The notes under the pieces: generated by a model
The model's database searches: none
What the model was told of the DNA's origin: nothing
What the model saw: the letters and a program-made list of their open reading frames with translations, nothing else
In this document: positions 26,789 to 42,503 of the stretch, piece after piece
Layout: each line of letters starts with the position of its first letter
Numbering within the stretch: the stretch's first letter is position 1
Translations under genes and position numbers: made by a program
From: Escherichia phage vB_EcoS_MM-1
Sequence record: PV577657
Strand: one strand, 5' to 3'
Length of the DNA: 64,000 nt

Positions 26789-29557
26789 CTATGAGTTATC
26801 TGGCTTAATAAGCTCGCTAACAAGTTTCTTCAGTTCGGTTAATTCTTGCTCAAGTTTGTTAACTTTATCAGCTTGATAACGAAATGCGCAAGCTAGGTCT
26901 GCCATAATGACGTTGTTATCAAGCGCTAATGTGTCATCTGCTTTGTCAACAACAATTTGACGATCTACATATTCTTCACCTTCATCGTTAACACCTACAA
27001 CATCTGCAAAAATATCACCTCCCGGGATTAATTTTACGTATTCGGGATCTATTTTTAGCAGGTCTTGGGCTATTAAGCCGAATCGTTGGATATCGCTACC
27101 GTTGTATTTAAACATCGTTGGCAACCACTGCATAACTCGGTCATAGCTTTCTTTTCCATCTGTATAAATTATATCGTGCTTTAAATCTCTGTCAGAGTTA
27201 GCGGCCTTTTGAAAAATGAAATTTCCACTTGATGACCATGTGGTTATATCGTTTGAGGCTGGCTGAAACTGGAAGTTACAGAAAAAATTACCATCACCAC
27301 GAAGTCTTAGCGAGCAAAAAGGCCAAGCATTATTTCCCTGTGGGATAAGTCCCCAAGTTGCGCGAATTGGATAACCACCAGTGGATTGTGTACCCCATGA
27401 AAGGCCAGGTGCCCATCCACCATCATTGTTAGCAATAGTCTCACCCCAAACAAGAGCATTACCCCAATAGTTAGGAGCATCCCATCCCATTTGTTGGGTT
27501 TTGCCAGTGTATTGAGCAGAATGCGTTCTGCCGTCAGGGTAAAACTTGTGCATATAGGACCGTATCCCTGCTTGATACAACTCTATTCCAAAAGATTCAA
27601 CGTGTGTGTCGCCTCTTCTGATTAAACCAGCGATAGCGTAATCGTCATACCAGTTGTAACGACTTACACCAGTCCATGTGTTTATTGGTGGATTCATGAT
27701 TGAAAATAGTTGTGACGCATTGCGTTCATTCCCATCTGCATAAATACCAGCCCCAGGAGCTAAGGAAATACTTTTCGCTCCTGAAAAAGTACCATTTTCA
27801 TTAAACTGATAATACTGTGATGCCCCATTATGAAATACGCCTATTGTATGCTTTCCTACGCCTACTTGAGTCTCAAAATAAGACTGAGAAGAACCAATAT
27901 CTTCGCCTTGTGTATTCTTTAATTTTGAATGATATATACCTGCATTTGCAGTAGTTGCATTTTCCGTTTCGTTTTCAACATTAAGACTTAGGAACTTTGG
28001 TGCATGTTTCTCACCAAGCCCTATATTATTTCTGATACCATTCGCATCCTTAGCACCTGTACCACCAAATTGAATACCTAGTGGTAGCCATTGATTGGTT
28101 GTAGCATCATAAACGCCCCAATGATCCCCACCATCTGGAATGGTTAGATACTTGTTTTTATTTGGAGAATATAAAATTGTTTCACCAGAATTCTGAAACA
28201 GCCTATCAACTCCTAAATTATATCTAGCACCTTCAGGAGTATCTGCTCCTGTACCACCAGCCGCAGTTGATAATGGAAGAGTTTCCCATGATATTCCATC
28301 ACCTTTTGTATCTCTCTGAAGTACAATAAGACCATCATCTCTAATAACAAATCTATATAATCTATTATGTGAATATAGAAAAGTATGAACCCCATCTTGT
28401 ACAAGTGAGTCTATAAGGAGTGTCTGACGAGAAGCATTGATATTTGACAGATCTGAGAGATTATTTTCTTTTAGTAACGATTTACTAATGATACCTTCAG
28501 CTTTTCCAGCAGCTACTTCCGCACGCCCAGCGTCTGTAGATGCACTTTGTGCGCTACCAGCAGCATTGCTAGCTTGTTGTCCTGCTTCGGTAGCGCTATT
28601 ACTTGCTTGTGCAGCCGAGGCTGCAGCAGCATCTTTTAGCACTGTAGTTTCCGTTACCGCACTATCCTTAATACCTTGTGTGTCTGTTTTTAATTGCTCA
28701 ACATCAGATTTTAAAGCCGTTGTTTCACCTATAGTGCTGTCTTTAATTAGTTGAGTATCTGTTTTTAATTGCTCAACATCTGATTTTAAGCCTTGAATAG
28801 TAGTTACTGATTGGTTAGCTGAGGCTGCGGAATGGGCTGCATTAGTCTCACTAGTTTTTGCATTGGTTTCACTAGTTTTTGCATTGGCTTCACTAGCTTT
28901 TGCATTAGTTTCCGAGGTTTTTGCAGCGGATGCTGATGCGGCGGCTTGTGCAGAGAATATTTCTGCCCCATCTCTATAGCCTTTAGAATCCGAAGCAGAA
29001 GCAGCAGCATTAGTTTCACTAGCCTTTGCCTTATCTTCACTAGTCTTTGCTGCAATAGCAGAAGCAGCAGCATTAGTTTCACTAGCCTTTGCCTTATCTT
29101 CGCTAGCCTTTGCATTAGTCTCACTAGTTTTTGCGTTAGTCTCACTAGTTTTTGCATTAGTTTCACTAGCCTTTGCCTTATCTTCGCTAGTTTTAGCATT
29201 AGTCTCAGATATTTTAGCTGCAGCTGCTGATTCCTCCGATTTAGTAGCTGATGCAGCAGATTGAGTAGCAGATGTAGCGGACTGAGTGGCAGAGGCTTCA
29301 GAAGCTCCAGCAGAAATAGCAGCTTCCTGTTCAGAGTTCTTAGCATTAAGCTCCGAAGTTTTAGCCGCTATCTCAGAATCTTTTGCAGCTGCAGCAGACT
29401 TAGCTGCAGCCTCAATAGAAGATACTAACTCACTTGCAGTAATAGAGCTAATAGAATTACCTAGAGTTACTGTATATCTAGGAAACTTACTAGCAGTAGC
29501 TTTAGTATCATCAATATTTAATATTTGTTGTACAATAATTTTAGTAGTTACTGCCAT
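26789..29557 (-). CDS. L-shaped tail fibre (pb1-like) with C-terminal intramolecular-chaperone domain
   Basis: N-terminal Ala/Ser-rich heptad repeats (TSETNAK); C-terminal SDRDLKHDIIYTDG...FGLIAQDLLKIDPEYV resembles the S74 auto-processing chaperone domain. Confidence 0.75.
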   Translation of the reverse strand: MAVTTKIIVQQILNIDDTKATASKFPRYTVTLGNSISSITASELVSSIEAAAKSAAAAKDSEIAAKTSELNAKNSEQEAAISAGASEASATQSATSATQSAASATKSEESAAAAKISETNAKTSEDKAKASETNAKTSETNAKTSETNAKASEDKAKASETNAAASAIAAKTSEDKAKASETNAAASASDSKGYRDGAEIFSAQAAASASAAKTSETNAKASEANAKTSETNAKTSETNAAHSAASANQSVTTIQGLKSDVEQLKTDTQLIKDSTIGETTALKSDVEQLKTDTQGIKDSAVTETTVLKDAAAASAAQASNSATEAGQQASNAAGSAQSASTDAGRAEVAAGKAEGIISKSLLKENNLSDLSNINASRQTLLIDSLVQDGVHTFLYSHNRLYRFVIRDDGLIVLQRDTKGDGISWETLPLSTAAGGTGADTPEGARYNLGVDRLFQNSGETILYSPNKNKYLTIPDGGDHWGVYDATTNQWLPLGIQFGGTGAKDANGIRNNIGLGEKHAPKFLSLNVENETENATTANAGIYHSKLKNTQGEDIGSSQSYFETQVGVGKHTIGVFHNGASQYYQFNENGTFSGAKSISLAPGAGIYADGNERNASQLFSIMNPPINTWTGVSRYNWYDDYAIAGLIRRGDTHVESFGIELYQAGIRSYMHKFYPDGRTHSAQYTGKTQQMGWDAPNYWGNALVWGETIANNDGGWAPGLSWGTQSTGGYPIRATWGLIPQGNNAWPFCSLRLRGDGNFFCNFQFQPASNDITTWSSSGNFIFQKAANSDRDLKHDIIYTDGKESYDRVMQWLPTMFKYNGSDIQRFGLIAQDLLKIDPEYVKLIPGGDIFADVVGVNDEGEEYVDRQIVVDKADDTLALDNNVIMADLACAFRYQADKVNKLEQELTELKKLVSELIKPDNS
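28810..29260 (-). repeat. in-frame 21-nt tandem repeats encoding the TSETNAK heptads of the tail fibre
   Basis: Repeated GCATTAGTTTCACTAGCCTTT-type units on the plus strand. Confidence 0.7.
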
Positions 29558-29979
29558 TATTTAGTTACCCCATCACTGATAAATACTTTACCCTCCATTA
29601 TACGAAAGGAGCTAATTGCAGATCCTATAACATCTCTAGTCATAATTATATCATAGTATCCTGCGAATCGCTGACGAGGGTTATATTTATCTCTATCTTT
29701 AGATGCTCTAGCCCCTATATTTTCCACAGATTCTACTGGCAAACTTATAGCTACAGCCCCTTGAGCAGCATCAATAATATTAGTAGTAAAGGATGCTAAT
29801 ATCTCCGCATTCTCATCTAGGCTATTTTTTATAGTACCCCTTAGAGAATACCCGGTTAAGTTAACGGGGGTATTTGTAGGTGGATAAGTACTATCATCAA
29901 CATCTAAGAACCGCATCATTAAACCATATGGTACTTTCTCATCTATTACTAAATCTATAACTCTATTTTCAGTACTCAT
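29557..29979 (-). CDS. tail/collar protein (T5 p140-like by size and position)
   Basis: 140 aa, between pb4-like and fibre genes. Confidence 0.5.
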
Positions 29980-35609: not shown

Positions 35610-38600
35610 TTAAGAGTTTCCTAATGTTTTCAGACTAGCACCGTTCTCATTCAGAGCTAATTCTACTGCGTCTCTTAGAGCACTACTATTACTAGAAGCA
35701 AACTCTCTGAAACTTGCGGCATCCATAGCACTAATATTCAAGATGATAGGTCTTCCTGAAGTTGAGTTAGATGAGGCTTTTAGCTCATCATTAGGTGTAG
35801 CTTTCATAGGAACCATAGGGGTAACTACTTCTGTACCATGTTCACCCATTTGGTAACTAACCCCTGGGTACATATTACCACCTTCAGCACGAGGAACGAA
35901 AGAGTTGGCACTACCTATACCTTGATCGCCACGAATATAAGATAGTTCACCTGCATTAGCAGACATGGACACATCTATATTCTTTTGACGCTCTCCTAAG
36001 GTTAAGTAACTAGTTGTATCAGCTCCCGAATCAGCAATACTCGACATACTCGATGCAGAGGATGCTTGGGCGAGGGCCAGAGCACCTGCCAAACCTGCCG
36101 CTACCATCAGAGGGATAGAGAACGGGTATGGAACAGCTGTTGCCGCCTGCATTACAGCTACTGCAGTTTGGATGATAATCTGCTTCTTAGCTGCGTCTTG
36201 TTGAATCTTCAGCTTTTCAGCTTCTAACTTTTTCAGTTTAGCTTTAGATGCCTCAGATTTACCATCTCGTTTCTGCTCTGCTGCAATAGCCTGATCAATT
36301 GCACTAACCTGTTGACTAGTACTATATTGAATCATAGAGGCCACAGTCTGCATACCTGAAGCAATCATAGATGTAGTATCTAAAGATCCCTGGGAGAATT
36401 GAATCATAGCATTGGTTAGGTTACCCATGCTTTGAGCTACAGCGGTTGCTTCAGAGTTTAGCTCAGATAGTTTAGAGATTGCCTGATCATAAGAAGCCAT
36501 TCTATTTTGCATATCAGCAAAATCTTTATCTTCTCCAGATAATCCAGTTGTAGGGGTATACACAGCACCTACAGAAGACCCTACCTGTTGCTGCATCTGG
36601 CTATCTCTCTGTTTTCTAAGCTGTTCTAAGGCTGCTGAAGTTTTATAAATCTCATTACGATATTTAATTTCTTCTTCAGTATTACCTTTAGACAGCTCCA
36701 GCTGCTGCTGCAGAATAGATAACCTTTCAGTGAGAATCTGGGACTGACCAGTGACATTTCTCTGCGTTTGGCTAACCTCTAAGGCATCCATAAGGGCGGA
36801 TACATGAGTAGCAGTAGCTTGTTTCTCTGCTTCCCATAACTCTCTACTTATCTGTGCTTGAGCACGTCTAGACTGTTCTGCCTCTTTTTGTTTATCCGCT
36901 TGTTTTAAGTACCACTCATATTTTTCTTCCTCTATAGTTAGTTCTAGCTTTAACTGTGCTAATCTATACTGAGTGCTAGTCATAGTACGGTCATTCAGAA
37001 GAGCTATCTCACGATCTACACCCAGAATTTTATCTGTGTAATCCTTGACCTTTTTCTGGGCTTCCATACCCTGATTAGTAAGCTTAAGTTTCTCCAGCTG
37101 AATTTTTTCAATTTCTTTCTCAACAGCTTTATTTCCCTGGTTTGTTTGAAGAACACGGCGTAAAGCAGCTTCTTGCTCTTCTAACTGTTGGAGTTCTAAA
37201 TGCCTACCAGCTTCCTGTGCTTTTTCTTTATCCTTAGTTTGGTTATATACATCAGCTATCTTCTGTTGAACTGCTAACTGATTTTTAGTTTCATTACCAG
37301 TTAGTTTAACATACTCAGATAGAGCCTGAGATGCAGTTTTCATTTCAGATAGGGTGTTAAACCCTAAGTTGAGACTTTTAACGTACTCATCAGCACTCTT
37401 ACCAGTTCCTGCGGATAGAGACGATACGTTTTTAATTACTTCTTCAAAAGTTGCACTGGTTTTAGCGGCAGTATCTGTGCTAGTAGCTATATTTTGAAAG
37501 TCATTAGCTAAATCACTAGACGTTTTCTTAGTTTGGTTATATGCTTTTTGTTGCTCTGTCAGACCCTTTAGAGCAGCAGAATTAAAGTCATATACAGCAT
37601 CTGGGTCATATACATCTTTCTGTAGATTAATCTGTTTCTGGAACTCCGGATTAGCCTTTGCAGCAGCAGCTCCTGCAGTTTGGAAGGCCGATTTCCAAGC
37701 AGTAAGGTTTTCAGTAGAATCTTCTACTTCTTTATCTAACCTACTTACTTGTAGACCCATAGCGGCGGTTTCTGCTACAAATTGCTTATTGGCCTCCGAA
37801 GCACCTGCTGCTGCAAGACCAACAGGAATACCTTCACCAACTTGACGTATAGCTAGTTTTGTATAGAAATCTGCTTGTTCCATTCGTTTATCGAACTCAG
37901 ATTTTAGCTTATTACGCTTATCAAGAGATTCCTTATACATATCTAGAGCTTTATTATAGCCTTCTTCAGAAGCAGCTAAACTTAAAGCAACAGCACCAAC
38001 GTTGGTAGGGTCTATCTGTCTATTAGTTTTTTCTTGGGCCCTAGCTGCCTCAGCAGATATAGAAGCCTGAGATGTATAAAATACTGTGTTGATAGCATCA
38101 ATTACTGGCCCTAAATACTTAGCAGCAGCTTGTTGTATTTTTCTTAGTGCAGCATCTGCATTAGCAGCAAATTGCTCCCATGGGGTTGCACGTAGTACTT
38201 CATCTAGGTAGCCAAACCGCTTAGTAGATTCAGCAATTACCGCGTTAGCATATGCTTGTTGTTTCTGGAAAGTGGTAAGACTATTAACATTATATGTTAT
38301 ACCTGTGTTTGCAGCATTTAACTGTTTAACATAATCAGCGTATGCGTCATTAAGACGGATGGTGACACCAAGTTCATCCAGAAGTTCAATTTCTTGTTTA
38401 GATACGCCCTTAATTACACGGTTAAGTGCATCAGTCATATCAACGCCAAGAACAGCAGCAGCACGACGAGCTACTAAACCAAATTTATTAAGTTGTTCAG
38501 CATCAAATCCATAAGCAGATGCTGAAGATGCCTGTCTCATTGCTTCCTCAAAAGAAATAGCATATCCAGCAGCTTCTTGTAGTGATCTAGCAAGGGTCTG

Positions 38601-39290
38601 AACAGGAGTACCTGTCTGAGTACCTACTATAACACCAAATTTTTCTAGACGATTTAGCTGATCACCTAGTTTAAGTTGTTCAAATGCTGATTGCAAAACG
38701 AAGATGTTGGAAGCAAGAGCTGCGTACATAATAGGTAAACTACCACCTATCTTAGCCATTGCCGCAAAATCACGAGTTGCACCACGTGCTGAACCAGAAG
38801 TATTACCAATAGCTCTAGAAGCTCTACCAGCGGCACCAGCAGTGTCGTTAAAACCTCTAGCTGTACCACCTAATGCTCTATTAGTATCGTATAATCTATC
38901 CTGGACTTTTTCTGTTGCAGCTGCAACATCATTACCCATTGTTTTAACAGATCTAGAAACTCCATCAAATCCGACTTCTAATTTATCTGCTACTTCAATC
39001 ATTGTAATAGCGAGGTCGTCTAACTTAGCCCCTATATCATTAATAGATTTAGTAACACTAAGCATACCCCTACTAGCTTGCATTTTAGTAAGACTTTTCG
39101 CTGCTCTGTCTGCTGCCCTCTCAATGGAATAAAGAGTTCTGGGCATTTTACCTAACTGCTCATTTGTCAGTTCGGAAGCAGCAGCAGCATTTTCCAACGC
39201 ATCAGATACGTTTTCAATAGACTTTGCAGTACGAGTTGCCCCCTTCTGTTTAACGTCTATTAGTAATTCTCGTATTAGCTTATCAGTCAT
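35610..39290 (-). CDS. tail tape measure protein (pb2-like)
   Basis: 1226 aa; long coiled-coil middle, hydrophobic Ala-rich segments. Confidence 0.85.
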   Translation of the reverse strand: MTDKLIRELLIDVKQKGATRTAKSIENVSDALENAAAASELTNEQLGKMPRTLYSIERAADRAAKSLTKMQASRGMLSVTKSINDIGAKLDDLAITMIEVADKLEVGFDGVSRSVKTMGNDVAAATEKVQDRLYDTNRALGGTARGFNDTAGAAGRASRAIGNTSGSARGATRDFAAMAKIGGSLPIMYAALASNIFVLQSAFEQLKLGDQLNRLEKFGVIVGTQTGTPVQTLARSLQEAAGYAISFEEAMRQASSASAYGFDAEQLNKFGLVARRAAAVLGVDMTDALNRVIKGVSKQEIELLDELGVTIRLNDAYADYVKQLNAANTGITYNVNSLTTFQKQQAYANAVIAESTKRFGYLDEVLRATPWEQFAANADAALRKIQQAAAKYLGPVIDAINTVFYTSQASISAEAARAQEKTNRQIDPTNVGAVALSLAASEEGYNKALDMYKESLDKRNKLKSEFDKRMEQADFYTKLAIRQVGEGIPVGLAAAGASEANKQFVAETAAMGLQVSRLDKEVEDSTENLTAWKSAFQTAGAAAAKANPEFQKQINLQKDVYDPDAVYDFNSAALKGLTEQQKAYNQTKKTSSDLANDFQNIATSTDTAAKTSATFEEVIKNVSSLSAGTGKSADEYVKSLNLGFNTLSEMKTASQALSEYVKLTGNETKNQLAVQQKIADVYNQTKDKEKAQEAGRHLELQQLEEQEAALRRVLQTNQGNKAVEKEIEKIQLEKLKLTNQGMEAQKKVKDYTDKILGVDREIALLNDRTMTSTQYRLAQLKLELTIEEEKYEWYLKQADKQKEAEQSRRAQAQISRELWEAEKQATATHVSALMDALEVSQTQRNVTGQSQILTERLSILQQQLELSKGNTEEEIKYRNEIYKTSAALEQLRKQRDSQMQQQVGSSVGAVYTPTTGLSGEDKDFADMQNRMASYDQAISKLSELNSEATAVAQSMGNLTNAMIQFSQGSLDTTSMIASGMQTVASMIQYSTSQQVSAIDQAIAAEQKRDGKSEASKAKLKKLEAEKLKIQQDAAKKQIIIQTAVAVMQAATAVPYPFSIPLMVAAGLAGALALAQASSASSMSSIADSGADTTSYLTLGERQKNIDVSMSANAGELSYIRGDQGIGSANSFVPRAEGGNMYPGVSYQMGEHGTEVVTPMVPMKATPNDELKASSNSTSGRPIILNISAMDAASFREFASSNSSALRDAVELALNENGASLKTLGNS

Positions 39291-39302
39291 GTTTTATTTT
39301 TC

Positions 39303-39337
39303 CCAATAAAAAAGGCTCTGGGCAAATCACCCAGAGC
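39303..39337 (-). terminator. hairpin terminator/attenuator upstream of the tape measure gene
   Basis: GGCTCTGGG-caaatca-CCCAGAGCC with T-run on the minus strand; flank TTTTCCCAATAAAAAAGG shared with the 44306..44337 element. Confidence 0.55.
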
Positions 39338-39373
39338 CAAGCCTCATCGTGGAACGCCCATTGGAGGAAACTT

Positions 39374-39742
39374 TTACCGTGCACGAGATCTAGCATGTGG
39401 CTTAACGTTAGGAATCCTTCCGTTTTGCGGTTTATGCTTCTCAGCACGTTTACGTGCAGCATCTACAGCTTTAGCATCAAATATATTGATAATGTGTAGA
39501 ACAAATTCTTTTTCTATAGGATCAGTAATCCCATAAATATCAAATAAAACACCTAGTGCAGCCTTATCCTTACCTATAAAAATAGGAAAGTCACCCGGTA
39601 TGAAACAGTCAATCAGACTGTTATAAATATTCATACTAATAGATACAATAGGTGGAAAATCTTCGAGTTCAACGGGCATAGCCTTAGGATCAGGCTCTAT
39701 ACCCATTGACTCGCAAAGTATTAAATATTGTTGTTTAGTCAT
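39374..39742 (-). CDS. tail assembly chaperone-like protein (by position), possible frameshift extension product
   Basis: Lies just upstream of the tape measure gene; its frame is open upstream to 39829, overlapping the end of 39804..40208. Confidence 0.45.
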   Translation of the reverse strand: MTKQQYLILCESMGIEPDPKAMPVELEDFPPIVSISMNIYNSLIDCFIPGDFPIFIGKDKAALGVLFDIYGITDPIEKEFVLHIINIFDAKAVDAARKRAEKHKPQNGRIPNVKPHARSRAR

Positions 39743-39803
39743 TTTAGATGCTGAGCTTTTAATACATTTGTCTGCAAAATCAGCAACAGCATCTAGAAGT
39801 TCT

Positions 39804-40208
39804 TTACGCTTTTGAGCTACGAAAAGTGTCTAAGTGGAACACTGTCTGGTTGATCCAAGAATCAAACGCAGCAGAGTTCTGCATGAGCATTACAGCATTA
39901 TCGCGGCTAAAAGGAACTTCAGTAGCAGGATCAGCATCTGTTTCAATCAGCATCAGTTTTTCAACGTCACCTACAGTCAAACCAGTCCAACCTTTAATAG
40001 CTGCGTCAACAAAGGCTTCAATGAACTTATCATCATCCTGTACCTGAACCAAAGTACCATTAACCCATTCATCGCGTTTAGCAGAAGAAATAACACGTTT
40101 AGAGGTAGCACGAGACATATAGTTAAGTTCTAGTTTAAAGTTCGGCATACCTGGGTAGGAAAGAGTAATAGTACGAGTATCAAGAGTAATATCTTTTAAA
40201 TTAATCAT
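39804..40208 (-). CDS. tail assembly chaperone-like protein (by position)
   Basis: 134 aa between tube and tape measure genes. Confidence 0.45.
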   Translation of the reverse strand: MINLKDITLDTRTITLSYPGMPNFKLELNYMSRATSKRVISSAKRDEWVNGTLVQVQDDDKFIEAFVDAAIKGWTGLTVGDVEKLMLIETDADPATEVPFSRDNAVMLMQNSAAFDSWINQTVFHLDTFRSSKA

Positions 40209-41104
40209 TTTTTAATTTCTCCAAAGAAATCTATTCTCACTGGGTCTGAAGAAGCAGTAGGTATAATGTCCCACTCAACTCTATACACATCTGAGAACTC
40301 TAGGCGTTTTGTAATACGTGCTGAAGGAAAATCTATAGAAATATTATTATTTCTTATCGTTAAAGGTAGATCTGTCTCCGGTTCGATAGTGTAAACCATA
40401 TCTCCTGCAAAACGTTTTAAGTAATATAGAGAAATGGTTGCCGAAGCATTCATTTCATTTACATAAGCTCTTTTATTATTATAAATTTTATTTATATCAA
40501 AAACACTCTTATCTTCTCTCCAAGAGCACTGCTGTTGGAAAGATAAAGAGGCAGAAATAAGACCGGGTAAGATGCTGCCATTAGTAGAAGCTATTACTGG
40601 GCTGTAAGACATTACTTCACCCTGTATAATAGAAGCTGCTTCTCTATACGTAGATACTTCGGAAAATTTTCCCGATTCAATACCAACATTAAGAATTGGT
40701 ATGTTCTTATCTAAAGAAAAATCTACCGTAGATACATAACAGTTTTCAAAATATACACAGTTATTATCTTTATTTACTATATAGATATTGAACATAATAG
40801 GTTCAATATTACTACTATATAGTGGGAGTAAGAAAGTATTACCTTTTCTATCAAAACCTAACCATTCAAAGAAGTTAGCCTCAGTAAGAGTATTACTGAA
40901 ATTTACTGCTAGAGAGATAGAAGAGGGGGTTTGAGCATTTATAATAGAGTCTGCATAGTTAGTTCTACGATGAACAGTCCTACGAAGAGTCTTGAATTCC
41001 TCGTAGGAAGTCTGTATATCATAGTTTGATAGGGCATCAAAATGAAATGCCCTACCATCATACTCAACTATAACTTTTGACTCTCTCATTAGAGAGTAGT
41101 ACAT
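40205..41104 (-). CDS. tail protein, function unknown
   Basis: 299 aa, immediately after the tube gene. Confidence 0.5.
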   Translation of the reverse strand: MYYSLMRESKVIVEYDGRAFHFDALSNYDIQTSYEEFKTLRRTVHRRTNYADSIINAQTPSSISLAVNFSNTLTEANFFEWLGFDRKGNTFLLPLYSSNIEPIMFNIYIVNKDNNCVYFENCYVSTVDFSLDKNIPILNVGIESGKFSEVSTYREAASIIQGEVMSYSPVIASTNGSILPGLISASLSFQQQCSWREDKSVFDINKIYNNKRAYVNEMNASATISLYYLKRFAGDMVYTIEPETDLPLTIRNNNISIDFPSARITKRLEFSDVYRVEWDIIPTASSDPVRIDFFGEIKK

Positions 41105-41108
41105 TTAA

Positions 41109-42503
41109 TTAGCCACCTGCTGTTACAGTAATCTGTTTAGTACCTTTAACTCCAGAACCATCTTTAGCAGTAGCTTCTACAGTAACTGCACCAGTTTTAC
41201 TAGCATCTGCTGTTAACAGTCCGGTCGCACTGATAGTAGCTGCATCGCCGGCAGTGATAGCCCAAGTAACTTCCTTATTCTTTGCGGAAGAAGGAGTAAC
41301 TTCAACACTCATTTGAAGAGTAGCCGAGTTGTTTACTGTAGTAGCATCACCAGCAGATTTAACAGTAATTGCGGTTACAGCATTAGTAGCACCATCACCA
41401 TTAACAATCAAGTTATTAATAGTTGTTTTGGTATATTTACTAGAGAAGCCTAAGTAACCTTCATCACCAGCATCCAGATCAGATGGAATAGCTTTAAACT
41501 CTACTGAAGTACCAAGTACATCATCAGTTTCAATAGTAGGAATATTAACGTGTGCTTGTTTAGCTACCAAAATAGCCGCAGGACGTTCTTCATCGTATTC
41601 GCCACCAAGTACTAGAGCAATTTCGAAGCGGTTAACTACCTTCAGAGTTTTGATAAGATCTTTATACAGCTCCATAGAACCAAGAGATTTATCATTCAGA
41701 TAAGCAGTTAATGAACCAGTTAGTTCAAATGCGCCAGTAAATGAACCGATCGGAATATTTACACGGGACATAATATTTGGGGTTAGATACGTGATATTAT
41801 TATTAATGGTGAAAGTACCACCAGTAATAGGTATGTCATAAGACTTATTGGTATCCATATCCTTAATTTTCAAGATAGTCAGTTTGTTCTTAATATAAGA
41901 ACCCTGGATAGTCATATAAGTTTCATCATCAATACCTACCTCATCTGGATCAAATGGTTGCTCATCCAGAGGAATAAGCTGATTACCATTACCAGACCAA
42001 GTTACACGGCCAATATCTTCAATATCAACATTAACTTCTGCCTGATTAATCTGACAGGAATCAATATAACTCCATGCTTTATCAGTCAGAATATAAATAT
42101 GTAACATTGCTAACTCGTGATAAGAGTTATCTTTGAAGTTAACCATAAAGTTAGCTTCGTTATTGTGTGCCCCTGTATTACCCCCTAAGTTAATAGCTTT
42201 ACCACTAGAAAGTGCATGCCATAACATATAGTCAGGAACGATTTGCTTCTGATCCTCTTTATTGATATAGGGCAGGATGTAAGTGGAGAAACTCCACTCA
42301 GCTGCGTTTAAAGAGTCATTAAAACGTTTAGAACCACGAGTTGGACGCGGACCAGCTTCATTAACAGTAATATCTGTTGAGTTACTGTCCTGACCCCAAG
42401 AAATATCATCCTGAACTAGAATCTCTTGCGTGTTGGTCTTATTATGACCAGTCTTAACCGTAGACACGAAGATTCGAGTATTACGTAATAGTTGTAAAGA
42501 CAT
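41109..42503 (-). CDS. major tail tube protein (pb6-like) with C-terminal Ig-like (Big_2) domain
   Basis: 464 aa, same as T5 pb6; C-terminal Ig-like segment. Confidence 0.8.
   Translation of the reverse strand: MSLQLLRNTRIFVSTVKTGHNKTNTQEILVQDDISWGQDSNSTDITVNEAGPRPTRGSKRFNDSLNAAEWSFSTYILPYINKEDQKQIVPDYMLWHALSSGKAINLGGNTGAHNNEANFMVNFKDNSYHELAMLHIYILTDKAWSYIDSCQINQAEVNVDIEDIGRVTWSGNGNQLIPLDEQPFDPDEVGIDDETYMTIQGSYIKNKLTILKIKDMDTNKSYDIPITGGTFTINNNITYLTPNIMSRVNIPIGSFTGAFELTGSLTAYLNDKSLGSMELYKDLIKTLKVVNRFEIALVLGGEYDEERPAAILVAKQAHVNIPTIETDDVLGTSVEFKAIPSDLDAGDEGYLGFSSKYTKTTINNLIVNGDGATNAVTAITVKSAGDATTVNNSATLQMSVEVTPSSAKNKEVTWAITAGDAATISATGLLTADASKTGAVTVEATAKDGSGVKGTKQITVTAGG

What the first reader, a model, noticed from the sequence alone, without database searches (positions are those of the whole stretch)
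39804..39832. Possible +1 (not -1) frameshift fusing the two ORFs upstream of the tape measure gene
The two small ORFs before the tape measure gene occupy the canonical tail-assembly-chaperone position. The downstream ORF frame is open upstream to 39829 and overlaps the end of the upstream ORF. On the minus strand the overlap reads GAC ACU UUU CGU AGC UCA AAA GCG UAA A; the downstream frame is +1 relative to the upstream frame, so a fusion would need a +1 shift (for example at the UUU C or at the GCG-UAA-A stop context) rather than the usual -1 slip.
Basis: partly seen in the sequence, partly recalled or inferred. Interest (0 to 1): 0.4.

Follow-up and report, generated by a model that had tools for sequence, protein, structure and literature searches.

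The report
T5-type tail chaperone +1 frameshift site
The two small genes in front of the tape measure gene of this T5-like phage are very probably joined into one 31 kDa tail-assembly protein when a few ribosomes slip one base forward on a conserved UUU-CGU site, which would mean T5 phages keep the usual tail-chaperone frameshift but run it in the unusual +1 direction.

Summary
On the minus strand, ORF1 (39804-40208) ends ...GAC ACU UUU CGU AGC UCA AAA GCG UAA. The downstream frame is +1, is open from 39829, and has no ATG/GTG/TTG before 39742.

The window is a Tequintavirus (T5-like). Comparative evidence strongly supports a +1 fusion and places it at UUU_C (39824-39821), not at the stop codon.
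- All 48 distinct +1-type loci, covering about 15 genus-level Demerecviridae lineages, carry in-frame UUU CGU or UUU CGA 0-8 codons before the ORF1 stop.
- UUUCG is the only invariant multi-base block in 99 nt around the site.
- The stretch between the ORF1 stop and the first ATG evolves as coding sequence in the +1 frame (variable sites 5:1:15 by codon position).
- ORF2 has no conserved start codon or Shine-Dalgarno sequence.
- The conceptual fusion matches one tail-assembly-chaperone profile end to end.
- An environmental group of relatives joins the homologous ORFs by canonical -1 heptamers at the same Phe codon.

No record inspected annotates the fusion, and one paper states that T5 lacks a predicted frameshift signal. 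Nothing here is experimental. I rate it a new variant of the known G/GT chaperone frameshift, of moderate interest.

The parts
39804..40208 (-). ORF1, the G-like tail assembly chaperone (134 aa, 15.1 kDa), product of standard decoding
   Evidence: It matches phrog_313 'tail assembly chaperone' at positions 12-141 of 258, E 6e-34. A GGAG lies 9 nt upstream of its ATG.
39819..39827 (-). Proposed +1 shift cassette ACU_UUU_CGU. The UUU Phe codon is 39824-39822 and CGU is 39821-39819. After slippage tRNA-Phe pairs with UUC at 39823-39821.
   Evidence: UUU CGU/CGA is invariant in 48 of 48 distinct +1-type loci. It is the only re-pairing site inside the window [-5,+6] nt allowed by all lineages.
39804..39829 (-). 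Overlap in which both the 0 frame and the +1 frame are open
   Evidence: Only 2 of 26 positions vary among 32 close relatives, against about 31% in the rest of ORF1. The TCA/CCA change is Ser/Pro in frame 0 but synonymous in +1.
39743..39803 (-). Linker that is nominally intergenic but is coding in the +1 frame and has no start codon
   Evidence: Variable sites fall 5:1:15 at codon positions 1:2:3 of the +1 frame, binomial p = 6e-4. The peptide VAQKRKELLDAVADFADKCIKSSASK is conserved in deep lineages.
39374..39820 (-). +1-frame part of the predicted fusion (T-like domain, 148 aa plus stop). The GT product would be 277 aa and 31.1 kDa.
   Evidence: The fusion matches phrog_313 continuously, 1-262 to 12-258/258, 182 bits. 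It aligns collinearly with the -1 fusions of relatives and in the nine-sequence alignment A1.
39374..39742 (-). ORF2 as usually annotated from its first ATG (122 aa). No Shine-Dalgarno sequence precedes the ATG.
   Evidence: The position of the first start codon ranges from -86 to +118 nt relative to the site among lineages, and no conserved SD is present.
39314..39338 (-). Terminator-like hairpin plus U tract between ORF2 and the tape measure gene
   Evidence: It is annotated as a terminator at the same place in phages Lindwurm, Sugarland, KEY, PR1 and Slocum.
35610..39290 (-). Tape measure protein gene (pb2-like, 1226 aa), the presumed client of the chaperone
   Evidence: and annotation of the 100% identical phage MM-2.

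Best explanation
ORF1 and ORF2 are the G and T parts of a lambda-type tail assembly chaperone pair. Most ribosomes translate ORF1 to its UAA and make the 15 kDa G-like protein.

A minority shift one base forward while peptidyl-tRNA-Phe sits on UUU (39824-39822). Its GAA anticodon re-pairs with the overlapping UUC, which replaces a G-U wobble pair with a G-C pair. Decoding then continues at GUA (39820) in the +1 frame down to 39374. The result is a 277-aa, 31 kDa G-T fusion (...HLDTF|VAQKRKELL...).

By analogy with lambda gpG/gpGT, the G part would coat the tape measure protein pb2 and the T part would recruit the tail tube protein pb6.

Shown here: the geometry, the conservation of the site, coding-type evolution of the linker, the lack of an independent start, and homology of the fusion to full-length chaperone profiles and to -1 fusions.

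Inferred: that the shift actually occurs, its efficiency (probably a few per cent or less), the P-site slippage mechanism, and the chaperone function.
For: (1) Frame relation and sequence are as described.

(2) In about 15 genus-level Demerecviridae lineages ORF2 is always +1, and in-frame UUU CGU or UUU CGA lies 0-8 codons before the ORF1 stop with the +1 frame open across it. These include Tequintavirus (T5 itself appears to be L027, a contig whose 121,750 bp length I recall as T5's), Epseptimavirus, Sugarlandvirus, Erwinia KEY/Pantoea AAS21, Enterobacter KKP_3711, Priunavirus, Myunavirus My1, Serratia Slocum, Novosibvirus, Vibrio PG07, AG74, D51 and D28, and Aeromonas AhSzw-1. The census gives 48 +1 loci, all TTTCGT or TTTCGA, 28 -1 loci and 0 in-frame.

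(3) UUUCG is the only invariant multi-base block in a 99-nt anchored comparison. Only 27% of Phe-Arg dicodons in the window's genes are UUU-CGW.

(4) The window open in both frames shrinks to -5..+6 nt in My1 and D28 (UUU CGU UAA). Only UUU to UUC can re-pair there.

(5) The 61 nt between the ORF1 stop and the first ATG vary 5:1:15 by +1-frame codon position (p = 6e-4). This resembles ORF1 (27:5:87) and ORF2 (18:12:74). No canonical start codon exists in that stretch.

(6) No conserved start codon or SD exists for ORF2 in any lineage.

(7) The conceptual fusion gives one continuous match to phrog_313, 1-262 to 12-258/258, 182 bits, which is the sum of the two separate matches.

(8) Environmental relatives (33-40% identity, some on ~100 kb contigs) have ORF2 in the -1 frame. 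They carry G_GGA_AAC, A_AAU_UUU or U_UUU_A at or next to the same Phe codon. Their -1 fusions align collinearly with the T5 +1 fusion over residues 2-260.

[quoted passage not shown] UCC_UUU_CGU is the influenza A PA-X +1 cassette (PMC5009743).

(10) UUU followed by a pyrimidine is depleted in the window's genes, 26% against 52% for UUC.
Against: There are no experimental data. I found no proteomic or reporter evidence, and the key T5 paper (Zivanovic 2014) was not readable here.

CGU is the commonest Arg codon in this phage (327 of 784). From general knowledge it is a major, fast-decoded codon in E. coli, so the usual 'hungry A-site codon' is missing.

I found no conserved upstream SD-like element or downstream RNA structure.

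Ten other in-frame UUU CGU dicodons occur in the window's genes, so the bare motif cannot be very efficient.

Many ORF2 homologues in a 1.8-billion-protein library begin at the residue aligned with the T5 Met. Some independent initiation at that AUG therefore cannot be excluded.

The G-like identity rests on a PHROG annotation only. Pfam, NCBIfam and PDB gave nothing, and the structure model failed.
Confidence: 0.78

Rival explanations
1. ORF2 is an independent gene, translated from its own AUG at 39742 or by re-initiation after ORF1 terminates. No fusion is made.
For: Every database record inspected annotates two separate CDS. Many homologues in the representative library start at the residue aligned with this Met. 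One paper states that T5 and Sugarland have no predicted frameshift signal (PMC6256483).
Against: No SD precedes the ATG, and the start position is not conserved: Ile, Val, Leu or Phe occupy that column in other lineages. The 27 codons upstream of the ATG evolve as +1-frame coding sequence and are conserved at the protein level, with no start codon available to translate them. The frame relation is +1 in 48 of 48 loci and the junction indels seen are multiples of three. The related environmental group carries canonical -1 slippery heptamers at the same spot.
Confidence: 0.1
2. A fusion is made, but the shift happens elsewhere in the overlap. Candidates are the GCG-UAA-A stop context, AAA_G (39812-39809), or a -2 slip on CUUUUC.
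For: In T5-like sequences AAA_G would allow tRNA-Lys to re-pair on AAG. A stop codon in the A site is a classical +1 stimulator. The run of four U in T5 could in principle support -2.
Against: The distance from the site to the stop varies from 0 to 8 codons and the stop context is not conserved. AAA_G is absent from most lineages: Sugarland has AAA_C, and KEY, PG07, AG74, D51, D28 and My1 have no AAA. In most lineages the codon before UUU is AAC, ACC, ACG, UCC, UCA, UUG or CGA, so a -2 shift cannot re-pair. Changes between UUU and the stop are synonymous in +1 but not in frame 0. Examples are TCA/CCA, and CAG/TCG in Sugarland against IME260.
Confidence: 0.05
3. The frame change is made at the RNA or DNA level, by transcriptional slippage on the T run or by sequencing or assembly error, rather than by the ribosome.
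For: There is a short T run (TTTT) at the site in T5-like sequences.
Against: The run is only three or four T, and three in most lineages. From general knowledge this is far below the lengths that support RNA polymerase slippage. The same frame arrangement recurs in hundreds of independently sequenced genomes: 444 nucleotide-level and 909 protein-level records.
Confidence: 0.02

Closest known systems
Lambda gpG/gpGT and the conserved tail assembly chaperone frameshift of long-tailed phages (Levin 1993; Xu, Hendrix and Duda 2004, as summarised in PMC5009743)
   Same: Two overlapping ORFs lie directly upstream of the tape measure gene. The shift site sits a few codons before the stop of the first ORF. 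The second ORF has no start signals of its own. The expected outcome is a minor fusion product alongside the short product. The related environmental group even uses G_GGA_AAC, close to lambda's G_GGA_AAG.
   Different: The direction is +1, not -1. The site is a single-tRNA UUU_C site, not an X_XXY_YYZ tandem site. An extra gene (p140) sits between the tail tube gene and the chaperone genes. No sequence-family link to gpG was detected beyond a PHROG annotation.
UUU_Ynn +1 shift-prone sites of bacteria: argI, and the Yersinia YopN-TyeA fusion (PMC5009743)
   Same: The host group is the same (Enterobacteria). UUU is followed by a pyrimidine, no adjacent stop codon is needed, and the result is a fusion of two adjacent ORFs.
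   Different: Here the following codon is specifically CGU or CGA, and the site is conserved across a whole phage family in a tail-assembly context.
Influenza A PA-X cassette UCC_UUU_CGU (Firth 2012, cited in PMC5009743). From my own recall, plant amalgaviruses also use a UUU_CGN motif.
   Same: The core UUU_CGN is identical and the shift is +1 with tRNA-Phe moving from UUU to UUC. Pectobacterium phage My1 has exactly UCC UUU CGU.
   Different: In eukaryotic hosts CGN codons are rare and slowly decoded. In this phage CGU is the commonest Arg codon. The resemblance may therefore be in the slippery part only, and these are unrelated viruses using different ribosomes.
prfB (release factor 2) +1 frameshift, CUU_UGA with an upstream Shine-Dalgarno-like stimulator
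   Same: It is a bacterial +1 shift by P-site slippage onto an overlapping UUx codon.
   Different: Here there is no stop codon in the A site and no conserved SD-like element upstream. No autoregulatory logic applies.

Membership tests
G/GT-type tail assembly chaperone pair with programmed frameshift | Two overlapping ORFs immediately upstream of the tape measure gene and downstream of the major tail gene | tested here: met
   The gene order is pb6-like tube (41109-42503), p140 (40205-41104), ORF1, ORF2, tape measure (35610-39290). The extra p140 gene sits between the tube gene and ORF1.
G/GT-type tail assembly chaperone pair with programmed frameshift | The downstream ORF is in another frame, lacks its own initiation signals, and is coding upstream of any start codon | tested here: met
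   It is in the +1 frame. No ATG/GTG/TTG occurs from 39829 to 39743, and there is no SD. The linker substitution pattern is 5:1:15.
G/GT-type tail assembly chaperone pair with programmed frameshift | [quoted passage not shown] | tested here: not met
   In the window the -1 frame is closed by a TAG at 39819-39817 and no heptamer is present. The feature is met in the related environmental group, which has G_GGA_AAC or A_AAU_UUU.
G/GT-type tail assembly chaperone pair with programmed frameshift | Sequence or fold relationship to known chaperones (gpG-like spiral fold) | tested here: inconclusive
   phrog_313 and phrog_3914, both labelled 'tail assembly chaperone', match strongly. Pfam, NCBIfam and a PDB profile search found nothing. 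The single-sequence AlphaFold model had pLDDT 35.
G/GT-type tail assembly chaperone pair with programmed frameshift | Fusion protein actually made at a low fixed ratio and required for tail assembly | not testable with these tools
   This needs western blotting, mass spectrometry and genetics.
UUU_Ynn bacterial +1 shift sites | In-frame UUU followed by a pyrimidine, with the +1 frame open and tRNA-Phe able to re-pair on UUY | tested here: met
   UUU_C is present in all 48 distinct +1-type loci.
UUU_CGN +1 cassette (influenza PA-X type) | 0-frame A-site CGN codon that is rare or slowly decoded in the host | tested here: not met
   CGU is the most used Arg codon in the window's genes, 327 of 784. 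Vibrio and Aeromonas lineages use CGA, whose rarity in those hosts was not tested.
prfB-type +1 frameshift | Stop codon in the A site plus an upstream SD-like stimulator | tested here: not met
   The stop lies 0-8 codons away and is never in the A site during the UUU slip. No conserved purine-rich element lies upstream.

The most novel reading that the evidence does not exclude
UUU_CG(U/A) may be an intrinsically effective +1 cassette on bacterial ribosomes, as it is in influenza A. If so, it would work without a rare codon, a stop codon or a stimulatory structure. The cause might be a property of the tRNA-Phe / inosine-tRNA-Arg pair, or a change in translation or tRNA supply induced by T5 infection. 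The phage family would then have switched between -1 and +1 recoding at one pivot Phe codon by single-U insertions or deletions (AAC UUU CGA against AAC UUU UCG A).
Probability: 0.2. Interest if true: 0.75.

Novelty: new variant of a known kind. Interest (0 to 1): 0.55.

Why it matters
T5 is a classical model phage, and its relatives make up hundreds of sequenced therapeutic and environmental isolates. Every record I inspected annotates two separate small genes, and one published note says T5 lacks a frameshift signal.

If the +1 shift is real, the conserved rule that long tails need a G and a G-T protein in a fixed ratio also holds for T5. It would be implemented in the opposite direction on a minimal UUU_CGN site. 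That would have four consequences.
- It corrects the annotation of about 900 genomes.
- It provides a natural bacterial example of the cassette known from influenza PA-X.
- It offers a matched pair of related lineages (+1 against -1 at the same codon) for studying how recoding signals evolve.
- It defines the true T5 chaperone (31 kDa) for tail-assembly work with pb2 and pb6.

Tried and rejected
- The word-indexed homology search with the fusion returned no hit.
I used single-protein queries instead.
- Pfam and NCBIfam had no family for either ORF. A PDB profile search found nothing.
- AlphaFold on ORF1 alone gave pLDDT 35, which is unusable, so I ran no fold search.
- The HMMER search of 1.84 billion representatives with the ORF2 frame found 147 homologues, nearly all 67-178 aa, and no natural in-frame G-T fusion. 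The two long hits are repetitive and look spurious.
- I looked for a stimulatory RNA structure or SD-like element. Downstream and upstream z-scores scatter from -2.5 to +1.3 and show no conserved pattern.
- No tRNA gene is present in the window.
- Literature searches on T5-like phages with frameshift and chaperone terms found only the negative statement in the Sugarland announcement. Zivanovic et al. 2014 could not be opened.
- I considered and rejected four alternatives: a shift at the stop codon, AAA_G, a -2 slip, and transcriptional slippage (see the rival explanations).

Full report
**What is there**

The region belongs to a Tequintavirus. It is 100% identical over 971 nt to Escherichia phage vB_EcoS_MM-2 and 86-98% identical to hundreds of T5-like Salmonella and Escherichia phages.

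The minus-strand gene order is as follows:
- tail tube gene with an Ig-like C-terminus, 41109-42503
- p140 baseplate-tube gene, 40205-41104 (Pfam PF23779, E 4e-140)
- ORF1, 39804-40208
- ORF2
- tape measure gene, 35610-39290

ORF1 ends GAC ACU UUU CGU AGC UCA AAA GCG UAA at 39830-39804. The downstream frame is +1, is bounded upstream by a TAG at 39832-39830, and is open from 39829 to its stop at 39376-39374. Its first ATG/GTG/TTG is the ATG at 39742. The -1 frame is closed by a TAG at 39819-39817.

**Is the pair a chaperone pair?**

ORF1 matches PHROG 313 ('tail assembly chaperone') at profile positions 12-141 of 258. The ORF2 frame matches positions 170-258 of the same profile, and also matches PHROG 3914.

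A conceptual +1 fusion (...HLDTF|VAQKRK...) gives one continuous match, residues 1-262 to profile 12-258, at 182 bits. That is the sum of the two separate scores. The profile therefore describes full-length proteins that contain both halves in this order.

Pfam, NCBIfam and PDB sequence searches gave nothing. A single-sequence structure model was unusable at pLDDT 35. The chaperone label thus rests on gene position and on the PHROG annotation.

**Comparative test of the frameshift**

tblastn with the fusion found 909 phage records. In every row listed that covers both halves the match came as two pieces in different frames.

I read the junction in about 15 genus-level lineages of Demerecviridae:
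- Tequintavirus, apparently including T5 itself (L027, a contig whose 121,750 bp length I recall as T5's)
- Epseptimavirus
- Sugarlandvirus and IME260
- Erwinia KEY and Pantoea AAS21
- Enterobacter KKP_3711
- Providencia PSTCR5 and PR1
- Pectobacterium My1
- Serratia Slocum
- Proteus M4H10_20
- Vibrio PG07, AG74, D51 and D28
- Aeromonas AhSzw-1

In all of them ORF2 is +1 relative to ORF1. In all of them the 0 frame reads UUU CGU or UUU CGA, 0-8 codons before the ORF1 stop, and the +1 frame is open across it.

In an ungapped comparison anchored on this codon, UUUCG is the only invariant multi-base block in 99 nt. The preceding codon (ACU, ACC, ACG, AAC, UUG, UCU, UCC, UCA, CGA), the following codon and the distance to the stop all vary.

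In a census of 76 distinct loci, 48 are +1 and all of these have TTTCGT or TTTCGA. The other 28 are -1, and none is in-frame.

In the window's own genes only 11 of 41 Phe-Arg dicodons are UUU-CGU or UUU-CGA. Uniform use of this dicodon across lineages with 26-55% protein identity is therefore not explained by codon bias.

**Where the shift must occur**

The stretch open in both frames runs from 5 nt before the UUU to the ORF1 stop. In My1 and D28 the stop directly follows CGU (UUU CGU UAA). The window common to all lineages is therefore only -5 to +6 nt.

Within it, the only codon whose tRNA can re-pair one base forward is UUU, moving to UUC.

A -2 slip cannot re-pair in the many lineages that have AAC, ACC, UCC and similar codons before UUU.

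**The 'intergenic' gap is coding**

I compared 32 distinct close relatives (85-98% identity, no indels). In the 61 nt between the ORF1 stop and the ATG at 39742, variable sites fall 5:1:15 at positions 1:2:3 of +1-frame codons. The binomial p for the third-position excess is 6e-4. The same pattern is seen in ORF1 (27:5:87) and in ORF2 after the ATG (18:12:74).

The encoded peptide is nearly invariant among these relatives. It is recognisably conserved in deep lineages: LLDAVADFADKC, LLKEIDAFAERC, LETALQRFAKQ, LFTRFAKQ.

This stretch contains no canonical start codon, so only ribosomes arriving from ORF1 can translate it.

Inside the overlap only 2 of 26 positions vary. The TCA/CCA polymorphism is Ser/Pro in frame 0 but synonymous in +1. 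Between Sugarland and IME260, CAG to TCG is Gln to Ser in frame 0 but silent in +1. The +1 frame is therefore the constrained one downstream of the UUU.

The first start codon of the +1 frame lies anywhere from -86 to +118 nt among lineages, and no conserved Shine-Dalgarno sequence precedes it.

**A related group that uses -1**

IMG/VR searches returned environmental contigs, some about 100 kb long, with 28-40% identity to ORF1. In these the ORF2 homologue is in the -1 frame.

At or next to the codon aligned with the T5 Phe they carry G_GGA_AAC, A_AAU_UUU or U_UUU_A. The first two are canonical X_XXY_YYZ heptamers.

Their conceptual -1 fusions align with the T5 +1 fusion as single collinear HSPs, for example residues 2-260 to 5-259, with E from 1e-30 to 1e-51.

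The two geometries differ by one U in the run: AAC UUU CGA A... against AAC UUU UCG A.... In both, the downstream frame reads (N)UU UUC GNN.

A rough NJ tree places the -1 loci in one cluster. The root, and therefore the direction of the switch, is not resolved.

**Mechanism and its weak points**

The review by Atkins et al. (PMC5009743) makes three relevant statements:
- It is the apparent site of the Yersinia YopN-TyeA fusion.
- UCC_UUU_CGU is the influenza A PA-X +1 cassette.

My1 has exactly UCC UUU CGU.

In the window's genes, UUU is followed by a pyrimidine in 26% of cases against 52% for UUC. This fits selection against accidental shifting.

Several points count against a strong signal:
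- CGU is the commonest Arg codon here.
- I found no conserved upstream SD-like element or downstream structure.
- Ten other in-frame UUU CGU dicodons exist in the window's genes.

None of the 12 other in-frame UUU CGN sites opens more than 32 +1 codons, against 149 at this site.

I therefore expect a low efficiency. That is what a G:GT pair needs: the review gives a 30:1 ratio for lambda.

**State of knowledge**

None of the annotated records I inspected joins the two CDS.

The Sugarland genome announcement says that, like T5, its tape measure chaperone has no predicted frameshift signal, citing Zivanovic et al. 2014. I could not open that paper.

The searchable literature held no proposal of a +1 shift for T5-like phages. 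This is absence of evidence in a partial library.

+1 G-T shifts have been suggested for other viruses, such as the archaeal virus HSTV-2. The kind is therefore known, while the site and the family are new as far as I can tell.

**Verdict**

The predicted fusion is 277 aa and 31.1 kDa, not 27 kDa.

My confidence that a +1 fusion is made is about 0.8. My confidence that it occurs by tRNA-Phe slippage at UUU_C, given that a fusion is made, is about 0.9.

Noticed in passing
L007 (Aeromonas phage AhSzw-1, NC_047950 94346-95911), especially locus 401-1166: The ORF1 and ORF2 homologues are interrupted by many in-frame stop codons, and the one checked at the nucleotide level is TAG. Examples are K*TTNN, FS*EKF, HV*EW, ED*DLEE and WVS*VVH. 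The record has no annotated CDS there. This looks like reassignment of the amber stop codon in this T5-like phage. The UUU CGA +1 arrangement is still present.
   Followed up: partly
window 39314-39338 (- strand): A strong terminator-like hairpin (11 bp stem, 7 GC pairs, then TTTTTTATT) lies between ORF2 and the tape measure gene. It is annotated as a terminator at the same place in several relatives. The chaperone genes and the tape measure gene may therefore be partly uncoupled transcriptionally.
   Followed up: partly
window 39283-39384 (- strand): A 33-aa 'hypothetical protein' is annotated in phages MM-2 and JLBYU43. It overlaps the end of ORF2, the terminator hairpin and the start of the tape measure gene. 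It is probably a gene-calling artefact.
   Followed up: no
whole window (56 ORFs of 100 aa or more): UUU is followed by a pyrimidine in only 26% of cases (116 of 439), against 52% for UUC (146 of 278). This fits genome-wide avoidance of the +1-prone UUU_Y context.
   Followed up: partly
L041-L065 and L071-L090 (IMG/VR environmental contigs, e.g. L057 102 kb, L059 100 kb, L087 106 kb): This is a group of uncultured phages, some on contigs of T5-like genome size. Their chaperone pair uses canonical -1 heptamers (G_GGA_AAC, A_AAU_UUU) at the codon where cultured Demerecviridae use +1. A single-U insertion or deletion interconverts the two arrangements.
   Followed up: partly
window 29557-29979 (- strand), codon 124 of 141: A second exact UCC UUU CGU (the influenza PA-X cassette) lies near the 3' end of a 140-aa ORF. 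The +1 frame closes after 2 codons and the next gene is in the -1 frame, so no fusion is expected.
   Followed up: yes
window 40205-41104 (- strand): The p140 baseplate-tube gene sits between the tail tube gene and the chaperone pair. The usual order of tube gene, G, T, tape measure gene is therefore interrupted in this family.
   Followed up: no
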